Below the pieces are notes generated by a model. That model searched no databases. It saw only the letters and a program-made list of their open reading frames with translations, and was not told the DNA's origin. A program made the position numbers and the translations under genes. This document shows, piece by piece, positions 24,441 through 35,765 of a stretch of 64,000 nucleotides of DNA (its first letter is position 1; each line of letters opens with the position of its first letter). The stretch spans positions 7,604-71,603 of the forward strand of contig JAZDFD010000016.1 in assembly GCA_043808155.1 (NCBI GenBank). Reading direction: 5' to 3'. This stretch comes from Candidatus Iainarchaeum sp. GTDB lineage: Archaea > Iainarchaeota > Iainarchaeia > Iainarchaeales > JAZDFD01.

Positions 24441-25853
24441 TTGAATCAAAGAGTATTGCTAATTTATCCAACTTATAAAATTTTGATGGTTGCAGATGAT
24501 GTTGTAAGTGCACCTGTAGTCGCACCTAATCTTGGTTTAGCATATGTAGCTGCATCTCTGGAACAGAATAACATTCCTGTGGACCTTCTTGATGCAAATT
24601 CTTTACAATCTACATTACCTGAAATACTTGACAAAGTTCGGGAATTTAACCCTACTATTATCGGTCTGGGATGTATAACACCTACTGCAAAAATTTGTGT
24701 AGAACTTACAAAAAGACTGAAAGAATCCTTTCCAAACATAAAAATTGTTATTGGCGGGGTTCATGCTTATTTTAAAGCAGATGAACTTATTCAGGAAAAA
24801 ACTATTGATTTTGTTATTAGAGGAGAAGGGGAGTACGTTTTCCCTCAACTAGTAAACGCTCTTGATAAAAAAATGCCACTTGGCGGTGTTAAAGGACTTG
24901 TTTACAAATCCGGGGGTAAAGTGTTTGATAATGGTTTTGCAGATAGAATAATCGATTTGGATAAATTACCATTTCCAGCGAGACATTTACTACCAAATGA
25001 ACTTTACAGTTCTCCTGGTTTGATAAAAGTCGGAGGAAAACCATTTGGGAGTATGATAACTTCAAGGGGCTGCCCCTTTTCATGTAATTATTGTGCTTCA
25101 GCAGAATTATGGAAAAGAAAAGTAACATTTCATTCTGCAGATTACGTGTTAAAAGAATTAGATCAAATGGTTGAAACTCTCAAAATAAAATATTTGCATT
25201 TTTATGATGACACATTTAGTGTTAGACCTGACCGTGTTATGGACATCTGTAATGGGATGATTGACAGAGATTATAATTTGAAATGGGCAATTGAATTGAG
25301 AGTAAAAGGCGTAGATGAAAAAATGCTTGAAAAGTTAAAAGAAGCTGGCTGCGTAGGACTTTACTTTGGAATTGAGTTTGGTTCACAAAGAATTCTTGAT
25401 CTTACAGAAAAAGGAATTACTATTGAAGATATTAAAAAAATGATGACATTAGTTGACAAAGTTGGCGGTTTTAATGTACAGGGATTTTTTATGATGGGTT
25501 ATCCAACTGAAACAAAAGAAGAAATATTGCAAAGTATTGAACTTGCAAAGAGTTTGAATTTCCACAGTATTGGATTTTCTATAGTGACTCCTTTTCCTGG
25601 TACACATCTTTATGATTATTGTGAAAAAAATAATTTGCTTGTTTCAAAAGATTGGAATAAATATAATCTTAAAGTCCCCAGAATGCTTATTAAAAATCCA
25701 AATTATACTGAAGAAGAACTAAAAGCCCTTTTTTCAAAAGGTTATCATGATTTTTATATAAGACCATCTTACATTGCCAAAATGATTGCATCAATCAGAA
25801 CAATAGATGAAGCAAAATACTATTTCTCACAGGGCATGAGAATGATAAAATAA
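24441..25853 (+). CDS. B12-binding-domain radical SAM enzyme
   Basis: N-terminal cobalamin-binding-like domain (RVLLIYPTYK...IVIGGVHA) and the radical SAM cluster motif SRGCPFSCNYCAS. Confidence 0.85.
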   Translation: MNQRVLLIYPTYKILMVADDVVSAPVVAPNLGLAYVAASLEQNNIPVDLLDANSLQSTLPEILDKVREFNPTIIGLGCITPTAKICVELTKRLKESFPNIKIVIGGVHAYFKADELIQEKTIDFVIRGEGEYVFPQLVNALDKKMPLGGVKGLVYKSGGKVFDNGFADRIIDLDKLPFPARHLLPNELYSSPGLIKVGGKPFGSMITSRGCPFSCNYCASAELWKRKVTFHSADYVLKELDQMVETLKIKYLHFYDDTFSVRPDRVMDICNGMIDRDYNLKWAIELRVKGVDEKMLEKLKEAGCVGLYFGIEFGSQRILDLTEKGITIEDIKKMMTLVDKVGGFNVQGFFMMGYPTETKEEILQSIELAKSLNFHSIGFSIVTPFPGTHLYDYCEKNNLLVSKDWNKYNLKVPRMLIKNPNYTEEELKALFSKGYHDFYIRPSYIAKMIASIRTIDEAKYYFSQGMRMIK

Positions 25854-30165: not shown

Positions 30166-30204
30166 TTCCAAACTGTTTTATTCTTGTTAGGCACTTACAT
30201 TAGT

Positions 30205-30420
30205 ATGTGCCTTGCTCTTACTTGTGAAGTTATTGCAGTAACTGAAAAAGAACTAATTGTGGATTTCGCAGGGGAAAAGAAAAAAGCCCTGAATTTAACT
30301 AATGCTAAACCAGGCGACTTTGTAATTGTACAGCAGGGAATTGCAATTGAGAAAGTAAACAAAAAAGAAGCAAAAGAAAGAAAAAAAATCCTTGCAAAAG
30401 CTAAGAAACGAATTAATTAA
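30205..30420 (+). CDS. hypC: Hydrogenase maturation chaperone HypC/HupF family
   Basis: Starts MCLALTCEV (the essential Cys2 of HypC). The OB-fold core is followed by a K-rich tail. The track ORF starts 21 nt earlier at a TTG. Confidence 0.7.
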   Translation: MCLALTCEVIAVTEKELIVDFAGEKKKALNLTNAKPGDFVIVQQGIAIEKVNKKEAKERKKILAKAKKRIN

Positions 30421-30482
30421 GTGCTAAAAGAAAACTAATTATTGCTATAATCTAATTAATTGCTATAATTGCTAAAAGAGAA

Positions 30483-31190
30483 TTAATTAATCGCTTCTAA
30501 ATTGTTTATTGTGACTTTTTTCAGAGTTTCTAATTTTTTTGTGTTTAATTTCTCGCAAAATGACTCCCAGTGAAAAGAAATCATATCTCCCTGAACAATT
30601 TCATCACCAAAATAGTTGCGAATTTGCTTTTTAGTATCATTTCCAAACACAAATTTTTCATTTTCTAAAACTATTGGAGTGTATGAAATTTCTAGTGTGT
30701 TTGCTCTACCCCTCAAAACCTCACCCCATGAGATTTTGCATTTGTCCAGATTTTCTATTACAGTCGGTACCTTTTTTGTTAATGAGTTAATGTTAAACAC
30801 ATGAAATGAATGGTGTGCCGTTACATTTTCAGGAACTTTTTCAACTAATTTTGCTGAAATCTCAGATCCTAAAAATTCAGGTTTTGAAAACTTATTTAAA
30901 ATCAAATTTCTAATATCTTTCGCATAAACATTTTCCAATAATTCATTCCCAATCCAGTAAGCTTCTGCAACTCTGTAATCAAACCAATGCATTTCATTCT
31001 TTTCAGCAATCAATCTCAGATATGCGCCCAATGCTTCAAACTTTGAAAGTGAATTTAAAATCTGCTCACCAACAAAAGAATCTTTTCCTGAAATGTACTC
31101 CTGAATCAAATCACTTATATTTGAGGGTCCGCAGTAACCAAGTTTATTTGGCATGAATGAATAGCGGGACAAAAACTCAATATTATCCAT
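30483..31190 (-). CDS. Hypothetical protein
   Basis: A 235-aa ORF overlapping the upstream EamA gene's stop by 1 nt. No motif recognised. Confidence 0.4.
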   Translation of the reverse strand: MDNIEFLSRYSFMPNKLGYCGPSNISDLIQEYISGKDSFVGEQILNSLSKFEALGAYLRLIAEKNEMHWFDYRVAEAYWIGNELLENVYAKDIRNLILNKFSKPEFLGSEISAKLVEKVPENVTAHHSFHVFNINSLTKKVPTVIENLDKCKISWGEVLRGRANTLEISYTPIVLENEKFVFGNDTKKQIRNYFGDEIVQGDMISFHWESFCEKLNTKKLETLKKVTINNLEAIN

Positions 31191-32104
31191 TATTTTTCAC
31201 GTGCAAGTAATTTCACTGGCATTTTTATCAATGAAATAAATTGTGAAATTCCCAGAACTAAAAGAACACCAACTAAAAGAAGTAAAAATCCAGCTGCCTG
31301 TATTATTGTAATTCCAGTTCCCAAAAATGCAAAAGAAAGTAATGCAGTAATTGGTTGCCCTAAAAGTAAAATTACTGCTGCTTTTGAAACATCAATATAT
31401 TTCAAACCTGAATACCATGAAATAACATACAAAAACAGCAAAGCAGATGTTAAAAGAACCCACTGAATCTGCATAGTTCCTAATTCAAAAATCAAATTAA
31501 ACTGATTTGTAACAATCAAAAAACCAATCATAAACAAAGAGCCAAAAAACATCCTTCCAAATGCAACTTGTGTTGCTTTAAGCTCCGTCAATACATGCTT
31601 ACTCAGAACATTTTCCCCTGCCCAGAATAAAATTGCAATAAAAATTAAAATCTCTGCAAAACCAAATTCAGAAATATCTGAAAATAAAATTAAATTCCCT
31701 GCAAATAGCAAACACGCACCAATTAAGAAATTCTTACCCATTTTCTCTTTCAAAAGTACAAATGCGAACAACCCGATGAAGAGAAACATTGACTTGTGAA
31801 TGAATCCCGCATTTATTGCAGACGTCATATTCAAAGCATAAAAGTAAAGCAAAAAGGGAATGCTCCCGCCAATTAATCCAATCGCCATTAGTTTAATCCA
31901 TTGAGCCTTGCTCATGGCTACCAACTTACGCCATTCTTTCAGAAGAAAAATTAATGAAATTAAAAATACACCCACAACTAGATTTTTCATTGTAGCAAAA
32001 ACAAAAGGATTCATCTCTGAAACCCCGAATTTATTAATGAAAATAGACATTCCTGAAACTAAGGCAGTTATTAAAACTAAAATAAGCCCCTTATTTTGAC
32101 TCAT
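31190..32104 (-). CDS. EamA/DMT-superfamily transporter
   Basis: About 10 TM helices in two homologous halves. The pattern is typical of the EamA family. Confidence 0.8.
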   Translation of the reverse strand: MSQNKGLILVLITALVSGMSIFINKFGVSEMNPFVFATMKNLVVGVFLISLIFLLKEWRKLVAMSKAQWIKLMAIGLIGGSIPFLLYFYALNMTSAINAGFIHKSMFLFIGLFAFVLLKEKMGKNFLIGACLLFAGNLILFSDISEFGFAEILIFIAILFWAGENVLSKHVLTELKATQVAFGRMFFGSLFMIGFLIVTNQFNLIFELGTMQIQWVLLTSALLFLYVISWYSGLKYIDVSKAAVILLLGQPITALLSFAFLGTGITIIQAAGFLLLLVGVLLVLGISQFISLIKMPVKLLAREK

Positions 32105-32155
32105 GCAAACAAATAGAAGTGAACTTTATTAAAAGCTTTAGCCAATGTTTTAGCA

Positions 32156-32542
32156 ATGAAAACCATACTAGTTTTTGGAAATCCTTTAGTAACTGAAGAT
32201 GCACTGGCTCTGAAAATCGCAGACAAACTCAGCACACGTCCTGAAGTAAATGAAAAATTCAGATTTATAAAAACAGATTCTTTGGACAATTTAGAAGAAT
32301 ACGGTGAAAATCTTCTGATTTTAGATGTTGCAGCAAATATAAAAAAAGTTGAAATAATAACTGATTTGAAGATGCTGGAGCAGAATAAAATTTACTCAAT
32401 GCACGATTTTGACCTGGGTTTTAATTTGAAACTTCTGAAGAAATTAGGGAAAATAAAATCCGTGAAAATAATCGCAATTCCAATGAATTATTCTGAAAAA
32501 CAAGCACTCACTGAAATAAAAGAAAAACTCAACTCCATTTGA
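32156..32542 (+). CDS. [NiFe]-hydrogenase maturation endopeptidase (HycI/HoxW-like)
   Basis: ILVFGNPLVTEDALALKIADKL matches the GNxLxxDD metal-binding N-terminus. It lies next to the hydrogenase large subunit. Confidence 0.7.
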   Translation: MKTILVFGNPLVTEDALALKIADKLSTRPEVNEKFRFIKTDSLDNLEEYGENLLILDVAANIKKVEIITDLKMLEQNKIYSMHDFDLGFNLKLLKKLGKIKSVKIIAIPMNYSEKQALTEIKEKLNSI

Positions 32543-32576
32543 AACTTAAAATCTTCAAATCGTTCTGAAACGAAAT

Positions 32577-33848
32577 TTAACTCCATTTAACTTTCAAAAA
32601 GTGTGTTGCACAGCTCATACAGGGATCATAAGCCCTAATAAGCTTTTCAAGTTCTAAATTGATTTCTTTTTTCTTTTTATGCAGTATTGTTGGAATTAAT
32701 TGTCTAATGTCCTGTTCAATATTGAAAACATTTTGTGCTGTTGGAATAACAACAATCTCTTTTGTTACATTCCCGTTGTTATCAAAATGCATTTCATGGT
32801 ATAATGTACCGCGCGGCGCTTCTGTTACACCATACCCAACCTCATCTTTAATTTCTAATTTAGGGATTGATTCATTCACAAATCCTGCATTCAATAAATC
32901 AATTGAATAATCAATACAATGCAAAATCTCAATTGCCTGCGCTAAATTGTTTCTAAACGGTGAAATTGAAGGGAATAATTTTAATGCATTTGTGGAGTCT
33001 TTCTGAGTTTTTTTGTGCAAATTTTTCATATTCAAATTAATTCTTGCGAGTGCACCAACCATGTATTCTCTGTCATTGTGTTTAAACCCGTTTGCAGTGG
33101 AGTATGAGACACCGAATTTTCTAAAGTGTGAACCATAGGTTGTTTCCGGAACGCACATTCCGCAAGTATCTCTGATTTCCCCGTCTAAGAAATTATAATC
33201 CTCATTAACCATCCCCACAAAACAAGTTGGGCGTTCAAAAGGTTCTTTGTATGATGCAAACAAATTAATTGTTTCCACAGCCACAGGCCGTATCTGCTTC
33301 AAATATATTAACATTTCTTTAACTTTTTTATCCTCTGGAAATCTCAGAAAGCCACCAACACTTACAAATGCAGGATGTACTGAACCCCCGCCTATCAAAG
33401 TGCATAAATCATTCCCTGCTTTTTTCAAATCCAGTGCATTATGAAGGTGTTTGTGGTATTTTCCTTTGAAATCAAGTGCACTTTCAACTCCCAAATAATC
33501 CGGCAAAGAGAAAAAATACAAATGTAATGCATGATCTCTTATTTGCATTGCGTTTTGCAGTAATTTTCGCATTCTGATTGTTTGTTCAGATGCTTTAAAA
33601 TGTGCAGCGCGTTCAACTGCTTCTATTGCTGTTAAAAGATGTGCAACACTGCAGGTACCGCAAATCCTTGAAAGAATACTCGGAGCAATCATGAATGACT
33701 TCCCAACCACAATATCCTGAAAATACCGCTTACTTTCTGAAATTTGCAGTTTAACAGTCTCAACCTTTTTGTTTCTGATTTTAATATTCAGGTTTGCATG
33801 CCCTTCTATTTTTGAAATATTCTCAAGTGTTATGTCTCCTGAATGCAT
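32577..33848 (-). CDS. [NiFe]-hydrogenase large subunit (cytosolic group 3-like)
   Basis: N-terminal RICGTCSVAH and C-terminal DPCMSCATH Ni-binding motifs, followed by a short cleavable tail FLKVKWS. Length 423 aa. Confidence 0.9.
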   Translation of the reverse strand: MHSGDITLENISKIEGHANLNIKIRNKKVETVKLQISESKRYFQDIVVGKSFMIAPSILSRICGTCSVAHLLTAIEAVERAAHFKASEQTIRMRKLLQNAMQIRDHALHLYFFSLPDYLGVESALDFKGKYHKHLHNALDLKKAGNDLCTLIGGGSVHPAFVSVGGFLRFPEDKKVKEMLIYLKQIRPVAVETINLFASYKEPFERPTCFVGMVNEDYNFLDGEIRDTCGMCVPETTYGSHFRKFGVSYSTANGFKHNDREYMVGALARINLNMKNLHKKTQKDSTNALKLFPSISPFRNNLAQAIEILHCIDYSIDLLNAGFVNESIPKLEIKDEVGYGVTEAPRGTLYHEMHFDNNGNVTKEIVVIPTAQNVFNIEQDIRQLIPTILHKKKKEINLELEKLIRAYDPCMSCATHFLKVKWS

Positions 33849-34490
33849 TCAATCACCTAATGATTCGTTATTTACGAGTTTTCTTACAAGTTTAATGAAT
33901 TCTTCTCCTTTTGGAGGGCAGCCATGCAATAAATGTTCAACTTTGATGTGCTCATGAATTGGTTTTACATCAATTTGTTTAAATTTTTCAATCATTGGCT
34001 TAATTTTTTCTTTGAGTTGCGGGGAAATATCATTTCTCATTTTTGGATAGCCGCCAGTTGTTGCACAGCTCCCTATTGAAATCACTTTTTTTGCCTGTTT
34101 TCTGATTTCCTTCAGTTTGGGGAGTTCTTTTTTGCTTGAAATTGCACCCTCTACAAATGCAACATCCATTTTAGGGCTTTTTTTAGTGCTTTTAAGCAAT
34201 CTCATTGAAACAATCTCAATATCATCAAGAAGTTTAAAGAATTCGTAATTCTGTGCAAGAATCTCGATTTGACAGCCTTCACAGCCTGTAAAATCAAAAA
34301 ATCCAATCTTTAATTTCTTCTTCAAGCCACTCTTTACTTTCTTTTTCACGGCTTGCTTCTTCTGGTTCTTCTCTAAGCTCTTTTTCACAGCTTTCTTCTT
34401 TACGTTCTTCTTCACTTGCTTCTTTACGCTCATTCCAATTAATAAGAGCGTTGAAATTAATAAATAATGACTCACAATACTGCTTTTCAA
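33849..34490 (-). CDS. [NiFe]-hydrogenase small subunit with Lys-rich N-terminal extension
   Basis: Proximal-cluster Cys motifs FTGCEGCQ, IGSCATTGGYP and HGCPP, preceded by KKQVKKNVKKKAVKKSLEKNQKKQAVKKKVKSGLKKKLK. Confidence 0.85.
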   Translation of the reverse strand: MKSSIVSHYLLISTLLLIGMSVKKQVKKNVKKKAVKKSLEKNQKKQAVKKKVKSGLKKKLKIGFFDFTGCEGCQIEILAQNYEFFKLLDDIEIVSMRLLKSTKKSPKMDVAFVEGAISSKKELPKLKEIRKQAKKVISIGSCATTGGYPKMRNDISPQLKEKIKPMIEKFKQIDVKPIHEHIKVEHLLHGCPPKGEEFIKLVRKLVNNESLGD

Positions 34491-34696
34491 TATCTCTTTT
34501 TTCTAACTTCGTCACTTGCAAGTTTAGGGAGTATGAAGAATGAAAAAACACCAGTGACACCCATTATCACTGCAAAAGAAAGCCAGTCAATCCACATAAA
34601 TAGAAATAGTATGAATGAAATAACAAGCACAATAACAAGAAGAGTAGCTATTGCTTTCAAAATAGTAAAATAATCCATGCTATAAGCAATGTGCAA
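34487..34696 (-). CDS. Small two-TM membrane protein in the hydrogenase operon
   Basis: A 69-aa ORF with two hydrophobic helices. Its stop overlaps the small-subunit start (ATGA). Confidence 0.4.
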   Translation of the reverse strand: MHIAYSMDYFTILKAIATLLVIVLVISFILFLFMWIDWLSFAVIMGVTGVFSFFILPKLASDEVRKKRY

Positions 34697-34703
34697 CCAA
34701 TTA

Positions 34704-34961
34704 TTAAATAATTCCTGGGAAAACCCATGGGAGTATCAGCACTAAGATGAATAACAGGATTCCCTGATCCAAGTCACGCCACATCACAGGGATTGCAAGC
34801 CCCATAAGCAAAAAGTAAAAAACACTTGTTTGAGTCATAGATAGATAATATCCAAATAAGGCCCCAATAAAGAAGAACATAATCAGAACTGAACCAATCT
34901 TCCTCAACAGAACAGGGATGCCATCAATAATTCCTTTGAAAAAATTATAAAATAGACTCAT
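34704..34961 (-). CDS. Small three-TM membrane protein in the hydrogenase operon
   Basis: An 85-aa ORF with three hydrophobic segments, lying 7 nt upstream of the next ORF. Confidence 0.4.
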   Translation of the reverse strand: MSLFYNFFKGIIDGIPVLLRKIGSVLIMFFFIGALFGYYLSMTQTSVFYFLLMGLAIPVMWRDLDQGILLFILVLILPWVFPGII

Positions 34962-35066
34962 ATAGACATAATCTTAGTTCATGAGCTTTAAGTACTTTTT
35001 GGTTAGCGAGTTTTTCTTTTGCTAGTGGGCAGTTAAGTGGCGGGCAGTAGTTGTTGATTGGTTTAT

Positions 35067-35146
35067 TGTTATGTATATTCATTATTTGGCTGATTTTTAA
35101 TTATGTAGTAGGTTATGTATACGTATTTAGGCATATTATGTATAAG
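35067..35146 (+). repeat. Cluster of four TTATGTA(T/G)A motif copies
   Basis: tgttatgtatat 35067-35078, ttatgtag 35101-35108, gttatgtata 35112-35121, ttatgtataa 35137-35146. All are on the same strand. Confidence 0.7.
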
Positions 35147-35203
35147 TTGAATTTTGAAATTACCCACCAATATAGTAATTATGTTTCTTACCATTTGTGA
35201 AAT

Positions 35204-35332
35204 CTAGTAATTTTCTGAAATTTTGTCCAAAAAAGTGTGAATTCGCTCATACTCCCAAGTATCCCCAAAAACCCCTATGCAACAGATCTTCTCCTCCCTA
35301 GCCCTATTCAAAATATGGCCTTCTGGAGTCAT
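35204..35332 (-). pseudogene. 42-codon ORF, possibly a truncated paralogue of the 27296-27805 gene (or a genuine small gene)
   Basis: MTPEGHILNRAREEKICCIGVFGDTWEYERIHTFLDKISENY weakly parallels MTRFINRRCRQRG...GILIPWGDFRWFEHVEPLKRVV. GGAG lies upstream of the ATG, and the same TGTCCAA box family is upstream. Confidence 0.25.
35224..35244 (+). repeat. TGTCCAA-N-TGTG box copy
   Basis: tgtccaaaaaagtgtgaattc, related to the boxes at 27887-27939. Confidence 0.5.
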
Positions 35333-35366
35333 CTTCTCCAAAAAAATAGTGTGATTTGAAAAATTC

Positions 35367-35389
35367 TGTCCAAGAAAATGTGTGTTTTA
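35367..35389 (+). repeat. TGTCCAA-N-TGTG box copy
   Basis: tgtccaagaaaatgtgtgtttta. The flank agtgtgatttgaaaaattc aligns with attgtgaattttt at 27875-27886. Confidence 0.5.
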
Positions 35390-35605
35390 AAATTTAAATT
35401 GCTAATTTTGCCTGTTTTGGAAACTTAGGGCTTAATTTAGACCCAAAATGAAAAATAAACCAAAAATAGGGTTTTTAGTTGATAAATTGAACCTTTTTTA
35501 TGGATTTTATTAGTAAATCCAAACCATTTTCACGTTTTTTTGATTTTTTACTGTCTAGGGTAGGGGTTTATAGGCAAAAAACCCTCAAAAAAGCAATTTT
35601 TTCTG

Positions 35606-35765
35606 GGAAAAACAATTAGTTTTTAAGAAATAAATTCATTCCTAATGTGTTATGTATATAAAATCCACATTATTTGACCTAGTCTAGGTCTATTTTGGCA
35701 ATTATATTATAAGGAAAAACTTTTTTTCTTTAAGCAATAAACTATTCCTTGTGTTATTTAAAACC
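35606..35765 (+). repeat. Imperfect ~55-nt direct duplication (period ~106 nt) ending in the TGTGTTAT(GTATA) motif
   Basis: ggaaaaacaattagtttttaagaaataaattcattcctaatgtgttatgtatataaaatcc versus ggaaaaactttttttctttaagcaataaactattccttgtgttatttaaaacc. Confidence 0.6.

What the first reader, a model, noticed from the sequence alone, without database searches (positions are those of the whole stretch)
30184..34961. Two-subunit [NiFe]-hydrogenase operon with no recognisable redox partner, a Lys-rich small-subunit extension and two tiny membrane proteins
The large subunit (423 aa) has RICGTCSVAH and DPCMSCATH motifs plus a 7-residue tail, consistent with endopeptidase processing. Its size and motifs resemble cytosolic group 3 enzymes. 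The small-subunit core (KIGFFDFTGCEGCQ ... IGSCATTGG ... HGCPP) shows only the four Cys of the proximal cluster. That core is preceded by about 60 extra residues: a short hydrophobic stretch followed by KKQVKKNVKKKAVKKSLEKNQKKQAVKKKVKSGLKKKLK. No diaphorase, FrhB-, MvhD/HdrA- or sulfhydrogenase beta/gamma-type partner gene is adjacent. Instead the operon begins with two polytopic mini-proteins of 85 and 69 aa, and the second one's stop overlaps the small-subunit start. HypC and a HycI-like protease flank the locus, but hypA/B/D/E/F are not in the window. The electron acceptor or donor, and the roles of the basic tail and mini-membrane proteins (membrane tethering?), are open questions.
Basis: partly seen in the sequence, partly recalled or inferred. 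Interest (0 to 1): 0.6.

Follow-up and report, generated by a model that had tools for sequence, protein, structure and literature searches.

The report
Minimal archaeal hydrogenase without HypDEF helpers
A tiny archaeon carries an intact two-subunit nickel-iron hydrogenase of a type already noted in ultra-small bacteria. Its lysine tail and two mini membrane proteins are local add-ons, but the genes beside it (HypC, a HypC-like DUF6390 protein and a transporter) stand where the supposedly indispensable HypD/E/F genes stand in close relatives.

Summary
The genes and motifs are real. The 423-aa large subunit has complete Ni-Fe ligands and a 7-residue tail. The small subunit has exactly four Cys, enough for the proximal cluster only.

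- The hydrophobic N-terminal segment is an artefact of the far TTG start. The start conserved with a 90%-identical relative is ATG 34433.
- The Lys-rich tail is an in-frame 102-nt expansion that this relative lacks.
- The two mini-proteins are real and under purifying selection, but occur only in a narrow clade. None was found in 80 other loci.

The enzyme is group-3b-related and matches the 'hyd2' clade described in CPR bacteria (Jaffe 2020). No beta/gamma partner genes were found in the 88%-complete genome.

The more important point lies inside the reported interval. HypA/B/D/E/F were not found in the genome. Instead, HypC, DUF6390 and an EamA transporter flank the enzyme.
- In 201 related genomes, 47 of 50 hydrogenase carriers have this cassette and 2 have HypD/F. 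None has both.
- Two genomes of one genus with 95%-identical large subunits carry one cassette or the other.
- DUF6390 is a HypC paralogue that keeps HypC's Cys and His.

This scan has noted the same cassette before on other DNA.

The parts
34704..34961 (-). mini85: 85-aa small membrane protein with 2-3 hydrophobic helices; first gene of the string
   Evidence: ORF. No Pfam or NCBIfam match. Three 85-aa homologues at 71-78% identity. dN/dS of 0.13-0.22 against L014 and L101. The order PLD gene, gap, mini85, mini69 is kept in L101. Absent from the other 80-odd loci.
34487..34696 (-). mini69: 69-aa two-helix membrane protein with a basic C-terminus (63 aa if it starts at ATG 34678)
   Evidence: ORF. 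Conserved in L014 (dN/dS about 0.3) and in L101/L102, where it is called as 61 aa from MDYFTIL. Two close homologues (70% and 54% identity) among 1.8 billion representative proteins; a third, weak hit is to a 553-aa protein.
33849..34433 (-). Small subunit, 194 aa from the conserved ATG. Four Cys only, for the proximal [4Fe-4S] cluster. No domain for medial or distal clusters.
   Evidence: Pfam Oxidored_q6 96 bits. Aligns to residues 3-145 of the P. furiosus SHI delta subunit, 261 aa. Cys positions. Start codon argued from the alignment with L014.
34311..34433 (-). Lys-rich N-terminal tail of the small subunit: 41 residues, about 48% Lys
   Evidence: In-frame 102-nt excess over L014, whose small subunit starts MCAKKKLKIGFF. 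Tandem periods of 12 and 24 nt. Short basic N-termini (MKKLKIGWF and the like) are common in the family. L043 has an independent tail of about 38 aa.
32577..33848 (-). [NiFe]-hydrogenase large subunit, 423 aa, group-3b-related ('hyd2'-like)
   Evidence: PF00374 102 bits; NCBIfam sulfhyd_HydA 257 bits, below its cut-off of 880. PDB: SHI alpha 241 bits against Mvh 134 bits. L1 and L2 motifs, EGH and PRGT are invariant in 19 relatives. dN/dS of 0.09 against L014. It is the only NiFe large subunit in the genome. A GGTGAT Shine-Dalgarno-like sequence lies 5 nt before its ATG, which directly follows the small-subunit stop.
32156..32542 (+). Probable large-subunit C-terminal endopeptidase (HycI/HoxW type), convergent with the large subunit
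   Evidence: TIGR00072 33.7 bits (cut-off 47.45) and Pfam HycI 19 bits (cut-off 23), both sub-threshold. A homologue sits in the same place in 78 of 85 loci.
31190..32104 (-). EamA/DMT-family permease, coupled to the DUF6390 gene by a TAATG overlap
   Evidence: PF00892 136 bits. Overlap shown. Orthologues at 38-59% identity occur in 62 of 201 related genomes. These include all 55 genomes with DUF6390 and none of the 5 with HypD/HypF.
30483..31190 (-). DUF6390 protein, 235 aa: a helical N-domain without a structural match, joined to a HypC-like OB barrel
   Evidence: PF19927 146 bits. AF2 model with pLDDT 93.5. Foldseek matches only the barrel, to HypC structures 3vyr, 2z1c and 3vyu. hhalign against HypC: probability 95.9%, with C151 aligned to HypC Cys2. 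Invariant residues: C20, H127, C151, H207 and W208; H126 and H130 are nearly invariant (at least 90%).
30205..30420 (+). HypC chaperone, 71 aa from the internal ATG (MCLAL...). It has Gln where HypC normally has its conserved His.
   Evidence: PF01455 51.7 bits. All homologues in the fetched loci begin MC.

Best explanation
This is a functional 'hyd2'-type, group-3b-related [NiFe]-hydrogenase reduced to a heterodimer, in a 1.08-Mb DPANN-type archaeon.

Shown:
- The large subunit has every Ni-Fe ligand and a short C-terminal tail.
- A dedicated endopeptidase gene sits next to it.
- The small subunit can hold only the proximal [4Fe-4S] cluster.
- No beta/gamma diaphorase genes were found in the genome.
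- HypA/B/D/E/F and HydG were not found.
- The genes HypC, DUF6390 and EamA flank the enzyme. Across relatives they are found with [NiFe]-hydrogenases and never together with HypD/HypF.

Inferred:
- The HypC-DUF6390-EamA cassette does the job of the missing Hyp proteins. DUF6390 is a HypC paralogue that keeps the Fe-binding Cys and His and adds a Cys/His-rich helical domain. I propose that it is the iron scaffold. The His-less HypC would be its partner or the delivery chaperone. The permease would import either a metal or a precursor that the cell cannot make.
- Electrons leave or enter directly at the exposed proximal cluster, to a soluble carrier. The most likely carrier here is ferredoxin reduced by the genome's two 2-oxoacid:ferredoxin oxidoreductases, which would give fermentative H2 release. 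In some relatives the partner is a thioredoxin-reductase-like flavoprotein, fused to or next to the small subunit.
- The Lys tail is a translated, strain-level low-complexity expansion. The two mini membrane proteins are a clade-specific addition of unknown role.
For: Enzyme identity and integrity.

Clade: DPANN and CPR sequences interleave in the large-subunit tree. The traits match those Jaffe et al. gave for hyd2: a truncated small subunit of about 164 aa, hypC nearby, and no beta/gamma.

No partner genes.

Thioredoxin-reductase-like partner in relatives: it is fused in L012, L015, L018 and L026 and lies adjacent in L024, L031, L032, L063 and L093. All of these have a CxxC(D)G motif.

PFOR-type genes in the window's own genome.

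Missing Hyp and HydG.

Cassette statistics:
- In 201 genomes of the same phylum sample, 50 have the hydrogenase, 55 have DUF6390, 62 have the EamA orthologue, and the same 5 have both HypD and HypF.
- Of the 50 hydrogenase carriers, 47 have EamA, 2 have HypD/F, and none has both.
- The closed genome G001 (99% complete) has the hydrogenase and the cassette but no HypD, HypE, HypF or HydG.
- Five of five carriers that lack a PF19927 match have a short DUF6390 form. That form is homologous to the long one (hhalign probability 98.8%).
- In 50 further carrier genomes across DPANN, CPR and Nitrososphaerales, 7 have HypD. None of those has DUF6390.
- The same cassette also sits beside group-4 Mbh-type [NiFe]-hydrogenases.
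- G028 (HypA-C-D-E-F) and G139 (HypC, short DUF6390, EamA) have large subunits that are 95% identical.
- HypDEF status changes at least 4 times on the large-subunit tree.

DUF6390 anatomy. The HypC His is present in all HypCs from HypD genomes and in none from cassette loci, while DUF6390 keeps it.
Against: - There is no biochemical or expression evidence.
- The source of the CO and CN ligands and of nickel is unknown.
- The substrate of the EamA permease is unknown.
- The window's genome is 88% complete, so absence there rests on the pattern in relatives.
- Co-occurrence and mutual exclusion among related genomes are not independent samples, and they do not prove functional replacement.
- The redox partner in this organism is a guess. 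Its only TrxR scores like a housekeeping enzyme (159 bits against 276-446 for the hydrogenase-linked type).
- Translation of the Lys tail is inferred from frame conservation with one relative.
Confidence: 0.6

Rival explanations
1. The cassette handles nickel only. EamA would import Ni or a Ni complex, and DUF6390 would be a Cys/His nickel chaperone replacing HypA/HypB. The Fe(CN)2CO unit would be made by other, unidentified proteins.
For: No NiCoT or CbiM transporter and no HypA/HypB were found in the genome. DUF6390 has a His-rich PHHSFH motif and two invariant Cys. In G028 the alternative cassette includes HypA as well.
Against: This does not explain the strict exclusion with HypD and HypF, which make the iron unit. 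The conserved part of DUF6390 is the HypC barrel, with the iron-binding Cys and His. No EamA-family nickel importer is known to me (own knowledge).
Confidence: 0.15
2. The mini-proteins and the Lys tail tether the soluble heterodimer to the membrane. This would give it a membrane-side electron partner.
For: The two mini-genes lie directly upstream on the same strand, in the window and in L014, and are under purifying selection. A poly-Lys tail could bind acidic lipid head groups (inference). L043 has an independent Lys tail.
Against: L014 has the mini-proteins but no tail, so the two features are not coupled. No comparable small membrane ORFs lie upstream in 80 other loci. No homology to any hydrogenase membrane subunit. 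No quinone- or haem-binding motif is evident.
Confidence: 0.12
3. The enzyme cannot be matured in this organism. It would be a decaying relic, or it serves a non-catalytic role.
For: Every known route to the Fe(CN)2CO unit is missing.
Against: All ligands and catalytic residues are invariant across the family. dN/dS is 0.09. The protease, HypC and the cassette are kept in dozens of streamlined genomes of about 1 Mb. A dead enzyme would not retain a dedicated endopeptidase.
Confidence: 0.07
4. The hyp genes exist but were missed because the genome bins are incomplete.
For: G000 is 88% complete in 35 contigs. hyp genes often cluster, so one gap could hide them all.
Against: A single-contig genome at 99% completeness (G001) and others at 96-99% lack HypD, HypE, HypF and HydG. 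48 of 50 carrier genomes lack HypD and HypF. The positive controls (G028, Nitrososphaerales) were detected.
Confidence: 0.03

Closest known systems
CPR 'hyd2' group-3b-related [NiFe]-hydrogenases (Jaffe et al. 2020, BMC Biol 18:69, PMC7304191)
   Same: The large subunit is of 3b type. The small subunit is truncated (mean 164 aa in hyd2; here a 153-aa core). hypC lies nearby and there are no beta/gamma subunits. PF07992 flavoproteins lie near some members. CPR and DPANN sequences interleave in one tree.
   Different: The host here is an archaeon. The small subunit has a 41-residue Lys tail and two clade-specific mini membrane genes lie upstream. The paper left function open. It did not report the HypDEF absence or the DUF6390/EamA linkage.
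Group 3b sulfhydrogenase I of Pyrococcus furiosus / Thermococcus kodakarensis (PDB 9nez, 9e15, 5yxy)
   Same: It is the best-scoring solved relative of both subunits (241 and 89 bits). The L1 and L2 motifs are the same, and so are the proximal-cluster ligands.
   Different: SHI is an alpha-beta-gamma-delta tetramer with an NADPH/FAD gamma subunit and a 261-aa delta subunit carrying three clusters. Here there is no beta or gamma, and the delta ends after the proximal-cluster domain.
HypC/HybG/HupF chaperones and the HypC-HypD scaffold of the HypABCDEF pathway (review PMC12134894)
   Same: The C-terminal half of DUF6390 is a HypC-type OB barrel. Its Cys aligns with HypC Cys2, and a His stands at the place of HypC's conserved His. 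A separate HypC with the MC start is also present.
   Different: The Cys is internal, preceded by a 150-residue helical domain with no structural match. No HypD, HypE or HypF is present. The review states that all six Hyp proteins are necessary and mentions no exception.
HoxY-type small subunits of group 3d NAD-reducing hydrogenases (PDB 5xf9 chain C, 189 aa)
   Same: Similar short overall length: the 189-aa HoxY chain aligns with the small-subunit core. That HoxY carries a single cluster is my own knowledge.
   Different: HoxY works within a HoxFUYH complex that includes a diaphorase. No such genes are present here. The sequence match is weaker (50 bits against 89 for SHI delta).

Membership tests
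[NiFe]-hydrogenase large subunit (PF00374) | N-terminal RxCGxCxxxH and C-terminal DPCxxCxxH/R Ni-Fe ligand motifs | tested here: met
   RICGTCSVAH at residues 61-70 and DPCMSCATH at 408-416. Invariant in 19 relatives. PF00374 scores 102 bits against a cut-off of 25.8.
[NiFe]-hydrogenase large subunit (PF00374) | C-terminal extension removed by a specific endopeptidase | tested here: inconclusive
   A 7-residue tail follows His416. The adjacent protease-like gene is sub-threshold in both libraries, but its position is conserved in 78 of 85 loci. Cleavage itself cannot be tested with these tools.
Group 3b (sulfhydrogenase/NADP-coupled) hydrogenase | Large subunit closest to 3b references | tested here: met
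   Best NCBIfam models are HydA and ShyA. Best PDB match is SHI alpha at 241 bits, against 134 bits for group 3c. It is far below the equivalog cut-off (257 against 880), so it is a relative rather than an orthologue.
Group 3b (sulfhydrogenase/NADP-coupled) hydrogenase | Heterotetramer with beta (FeS) and gamma (FAD/NAD(P)) subunits, and a three-cluster delta subunit | tested here: not met
   No Fer4_22 hit in the genome. The only gamma-type hit is PyrK, in the pyr operon. The small subunit lacks the C-terminal cluster domain.
CPR 'hyd2' clade (Jaffe 2020) | Truncated small subunit of about 164 aa, hypC in the context, no beta/gamma nearby | tested here: met
   The small-subunit core is 153 aa, plus the tail. 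HypC lies within 2.2 kb. No beta or gamma gene was found.
CPR 'hyd2' clade (Jaffe 2020) | Phylogenetic placement with the CPR hyd2 sequences | tested here: inconclusive
   CPR sequences with the same traits (Gracili-, Peregrini-, Sacchari-, Parcubacteria) interleave with DPANN ones in the tree.
HypC/HupF family (PF01455, TIGR00074) | About 70-90 aa OB barrel beginning Met-Cys | tested here: met
   PF01455 scores 51.7 bits. MCLAL from ATG 30205.
HypC/HupF family (PF01455, TIGR00074) | Conserved His in the GDxVLVH(A/V)G motif (His51 of E. coli HypC; own knowledge) | tested here: not met
   The window has VIVQQG. The His is absent from all cassette-type HypCs and present in all HypCs from HypD genomes.
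DUF6390 (PF19927) | Pfam profile match over the full length | tested here: met
   146 bits against a cut-off of 25, covering residues 6-235.
EamA/DMT permeases (PF00892) | Two EamA repeats, about 300 aa, polytopic | tested here: met
   136 bits, two stretches.
Canonical HypABCDEF maturation system | HypD, HypE and HypF present in the genome | tested here: not met
   No HypD hit. HypE and HypF give only sub-cut-off paralogue hits (58 bits against 251; 39 bits against 466). There is no HypB, and HypA is below its cut-off.

The most novel reading that the evidence does not exclude
HypC + DUF6390 + EamA is a complete second way to equip a [NiFe]-hydrogenase with its Ni-Fe(CN)2CO centre without HypD, HypE and HypF. 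DUF6390 would act as a single-chain HypC/HypD-like iron scaffold. The permease would bring in a ligand precursor or a ready-made iron unit that these host-dependent cells cannot synthesise.
Probability: 0.35. Interest if true: 0.9.

Novelty: new variant of a known kind. Interest (0 to 1): 0.66.

Why it matters
Current reviews state that six Hyp proteins are needed to build every [NiFe] active site (PMC12134894). Here an intact enzyme under purifying selection sits in genomes, including a closed one, that lack five of the six. The genes that stand in for them are identifiable, small and portable.

Two genomes of one genus with 95%-identical catalytic subunits carry either the classical cassette or the alternative one. 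This gives a ready-made experiment on how the Fe(CN)2CO unit can be made or acquired. The anaerobic source of its CO ligand is a long-standing open question in the same pathway.

The heterodimer is also among the smallest [NiFe]-hydrogenase formats, which is of interest for engineering.

For ecology, the result bears on whether DPANN and CPR cells really cycle H2 and what they must take from their hosts to do so.

Tried and rejected
- Sigma-70 promoter and terminator scan: counts equal to shuffled sequence, and uninformative for an archaeon.
- Rfam on the window: nothing.
- A gamma-subunit lead (a DHODB_Fe-S_bind hit on C14) turned out to be PyrK in the pyrB-C-D-K-E-F operon.
- The genome's thioredoxin reductase was tested as a specific partner. 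It scores like a generic TrxR (159 bits, CATCDG), not like the hydrogenase-linked type.
- I looked for unrelated small membrane ORFs upstream of the small subunit in 83 loci. Only scattered single-helix ORFs appeared, with no pattern.
- My first iterated HMMs merged HypC with DUF6390, because of natural fusions and real homology. I rebuilt them as separate long-form, short-form and HypC profiles.
- PF19927 alone misses the short DUF6390 form.
- Literature searches for DUF6390, for hypD with DPANN, for EamA with hypC, and for HydG with HypC and CPR returned nothing.
- Model coordinates are not exposed, so I could not measure whether C20, H126-130, C151 and H207 cluster in the AF2 model.


Full report
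WHAT IS THERE. On the minus strand, from 34961 down to 32577, lie four tightly packed genes:
- an 85-aa ORF and a 69-aa ORF;
- a NuoB-like small subunit;
- a 423-aa [NiFe] large subunit.

The large subunit matches PF00374. Its closest curated models are the group-3b sulfhydrogenase alpha subunits (257 and 208 bits). Both scores are far below the equivalog cut-offs, so it is a relative and not an orthologue. It carries RICGTCSVAH (residues 61-70) and DPCMSCATH (408-416), followed by FLKVKWS. In an alignment of 19 relatives these motifs, the EGH glutamate and the PRGT arginine are invariant.

The small subunit has four cysteines in all (C51, C54, C123, C172). It aligns only with residues 3-145 of the 261-residue P. 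furiosus SHI delta subunit, so the domain for the medial and distal clusters is missing.

Convergent with the large subunit is a 128-aa protein with sub-threshold hits to hydrogenase endopeptidase models. A homologue occupies the same place in 78 of 85 related loci. Further on lie an EamA permease gene and a DUF6390 gene joined by a TAATG overlap, and a divergent HypC gene. The window encodes aCPSF1 (854 bits), so the host is an archaeon. Its genome is 1.08 Mb in 35 contigs and 88% complete.

START CODON, HYDROPHOBIC SEGMENT AND LYS TAIL. A metagenomic contig, L014, encodes a large subunit that is 90% identical. There the small subunit begins MCAKKKLKIGFF.
- Between the stop of the 69-aa gene and this ATG the two sequences differ by one nucleotide (53 against 52 nt).
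- The frame that in the window gives MKSSIVSHYLLISTLLLIG is closed by TAA in L014.
- Downstream of the shared ATG (window 34433) the window is longer by exactly 102 nt.

So the upstream stretch is a non-coding spacer. The hydrophobic segment comes from choosing the farthest TTG, and there is no stop/start overlap. The Lys tail (41 residues, about half Lys) is in frame and shows 12-nt and 24-nt tandem periods. It looks like a slippage expansion of the short basic N-terminus that most family members have, such as MKKLKIGWF. One other member, L043, has an independent Lys-rich tail of about 38 residues on a full-length, three-cluster small subunit. The tail is therefore probably translated, recent, and not a defining feature.

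THE MINI-PROTEINS. Both are conserved in L014. mini85 has three further 85-aa homologues at 71-78% identity. dN/dS is 0.13-0.22 for mini85 and about 0.3 for mini69, against 0.09 for the large subunit. A third lineage, L101, keeps the order PLD gene, gap, mini85, mini69.

They are thus real genes. However, an exhaustive HMMER search found only two close relatives of mini69 among 1.8 billion representative proteins. Neither protein occurs in 80 other hydrogenase loci. No analogous small membrane ORFs lie upstream of the small subunit elsewhere. L014 has the mini-proteins without the Lys tail. Their link to the enzyme rests on adjacency alone.

WHICH ENZYME. The best solved relatives of both subunits are the group-3b SHI enzymes, at 241 bits against 134 for group 3c. 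Thousands of close homologues come from DPANN archaea. A scan of species-representative genomes found 551 relatives in DPANN, CPR bacteria and Nitrososphaerales. In the 85 loci held, a small subunit of about 160 aa, the large subunit and the opposite-strand protease are nearly universal.

This matches the 'hyd2' clade that Jaffe et al. [quoted passage not shown] CPR and DPANN sequences interleave in my tree. I could not include the paper's own labelled sequences.

REDOX PARTNER. The genome has no beta-type Fer4_22 protein. Its only gamma-type hit is PyrK, inside the pyrimidine operon.

Relatives give a lead. In four genomes the small subunit is fused to a thioredoxin-reductase-like flavoprotein with a CVSCDG redox motif. 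As far as I can read the sequence, it lacks the HRR NADPH motif. In five more loci a closely related stand-alone gene (276-446 bits) lies in the cluster, twice directly upstream of the small subunit. The window's genome has only one TrxR, and it scores like a housekeeping enzyme. It does have two 2-oxoacid:ferredoxin oxidoreductase genes. My best guess is therefore ferredoxin-linked H2 release at the exposed proximal cluster. This is an inference.

MATURATION GENES. No HypD and no HypB were found in the genome. HypA, HypE and HypF give only weak paralogue hits below their cut-offs, and there is no HydG. This is a property of the family and not of this bin.

In 201 genomes sampled from the phylum:
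- 50 carry the hydrogenase;
- 5 carry HypD, and exactly the same 5 carry the HypF zinc finger;
- 55 carry DUF6390;
- 62 carry an orthologue of the window's EamA at 38-59% identity.

All 55 DUF6390 genomes have the EamA gene, and none of the 5 HypD/F genomes has either. Of the 50 carriers, 47 have EamA, 2 have HypD/F and 1 has neither. A single-contig genome at 99% completeness (G001) has the hydrogenase flanked by protease, EamA, DUF6390 and HypC. It has no HypD, HypE, HypF or HydG.

Five carriers without a PF19927 hit all have a shorter protein in the same slot. That protein is homologous to DUF6390 (hhalign probability 98.8%, E 5.5e-17).

In 50 further carrier genomes from three superphyla, 7 have HypD and none of those has DUF6390. 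The same EamA-DUF6390-HypC set also sits beside group-4 Mbh/Mrp-type hydrogenases whose large subunits keep both CxxC motifs. It therefore follows [NiFe] enzymes in general, not one class.

The sharpest case is in one genus. G028 has HypA-HypC-HypD-HypE-HypF next to the enzyme, whereas G139, G064 and G115 have HypC, short DUF6390 and EamA. The large subunits of G028 and G139 are 95% identical. The HypCs of the two cassette types (G028 against G064) are only 39% identical. On the large-subunit tree the HypDEF state changes at least four times.

WHAT DUF6390 IS. The AF2 model (pLDDT 93.5) shows a helical domain (residues 1-151), a beta barrel and a final helix. Foldseek finds only HypC structures and ribosomal S17-type OB folds, for the barrel, and nothing for the helical domain. 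Profile comparison aligns residues 151-230 with HypC 2-66 and places C151 on HypC's Cys2.

C20, H127, C151, H207 and W208 are invariant across 40 sequences; H126 and H130 are nearly so. The short form keeps the matching Cys, Cys and His.

The stand-alone HypC of every cassette locus lacks the His of the VLVH(A/V)G motif. Every HypC from a HypD genome has it. From my own knowledge, Cys2 and that His are the residues tied to Fe(CN)2CO carriage in E. coli HypC. DUF6390 is therefore the better candidate for the iron carrier.

HOW IT MOST LIKELY WORKS.
Shown: an intact minimal heterodimer, with a protease, with the cassette, and without HypDEF.
Inferred:
1. DUF6390, together with HypC, holds the iron unit and passes it to the large subunit.
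2. The permease supplies something the cell cannot make, either nickel or a ligand precursor or iron unit. This would fit host-dependent cells.
3. After nickel insertion the protease removes the FLKVKWS tail.
4. The heterodimer then exchanges electrons with ferredoxin or a flavoprotein.

The rival readings are a nickel-only cassette, membrane tethering by the mini-proteins, a dead enzyme, and missed genes. They are weighed in their own sections.

KNOWN OR NEW. The enzyme class is described (hyd2), so the window adds an archaeal member with local embellishments. I found no paper on DUF6390, and none linking EamA with hypC or reporting HypDEF-less [NiFe] systems in DPANN or CPR. A 2025 review lists six Hyp proteins as necessary and gives no exception. 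The library does not cover subscription journals.

Within this scan, other agents have already noted the same cassette, the His-less HypC, the TrxR fusion and the HypC-HydE/HydG variant on other genomes. I saw those notes after reaching the same reading, and I tested each point here on this genome's relatives.

LIMITS. All functional statements rest on comparative genomics. Related genomes are not independent samples. Most genomes are bins. There are no expression data.

Noticed in passing
L057:4796-7428 and L025:1049-2305 (Peregrinibacteria / Patescibacteria loci): Directly upstream of the same hyd2-type small and large subunit genes lies a HypC-HydE fusion (TIGR03956 267 bits, cut-off 254.6). 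In L057, HydG follows it (TIGR03955 566 bits, cut-off 312). These genomes have neither HypD nor DUF6390. This is a third, mutually exclusive accessory set, which borrows [FeFe]-hydrogenase radical-SAM maturases.
   Followed up: partly
L012:6506-8014, L015, L018, L026; also L024, L031, L032, L063, L093: The small subunit is fused to, or directly preceded by, a thioredoxin-reductase-like flavoprotein with a CxxCDG motif. This suggests H2-linked disulfide or thioredoxin reduction in those relatives.
   Followed up: partly
L095, L096, L097 (genomes G025, G050, G009 of the same order): The EamA-DUF6390-HypC set lies next to a group-4 Mbh/Mrp-type [NiFe]-hydrogenase whose large subunit has intact RxCGICxxCH and DPCMSCxNR motifs.
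   Followed up: yes
Small-subunit genes of L015-L094: The first proximal-cluster motif varies. The window has the canonical GCEGC. Most relatives have TCCEDS (second Cys replaced by Ser, with an extra adjacent Cys). Others have TCDEGC or TGDEGC, which may provide an Asp ligand.
   Followed up: no
L045, L046, L061, L075-L077, L091, L092, L094: Nitrososphaerales (the ammonia-oxidiser lineage) carry this minimal hydrogenase type. In the genomes tested they also have HypD. Where a HypC was found in the locus, it is 98-110 aa with a C-terminal extension containing a CxxC (WKCxRCEIVxEC).
   Followed up: no
window 34962-35981: A gene-free stretch of 1 kb lies between mini85 and the divergent PLD-family gene. 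The same gap (about 900 nt) is kept in L101. An earlier first-reader note lists repeats in it.
   Followed up: no
window 24441-25853 (+): A B12-binding radical-SAM enzyme (HpnJ/BchE-like, 217 bits, below cut-off) lies 4.3 kb from hypC, with unrelated genes between. I found no evidence that it belongs to the hydrogenase set.
   Followed up: no
L011:11562-13163: A Rad51/RadA gene interrupted by an intein with a LAGLIDADG domain lies next to hypC in a Diapherotrites contig.
   Followed up: no
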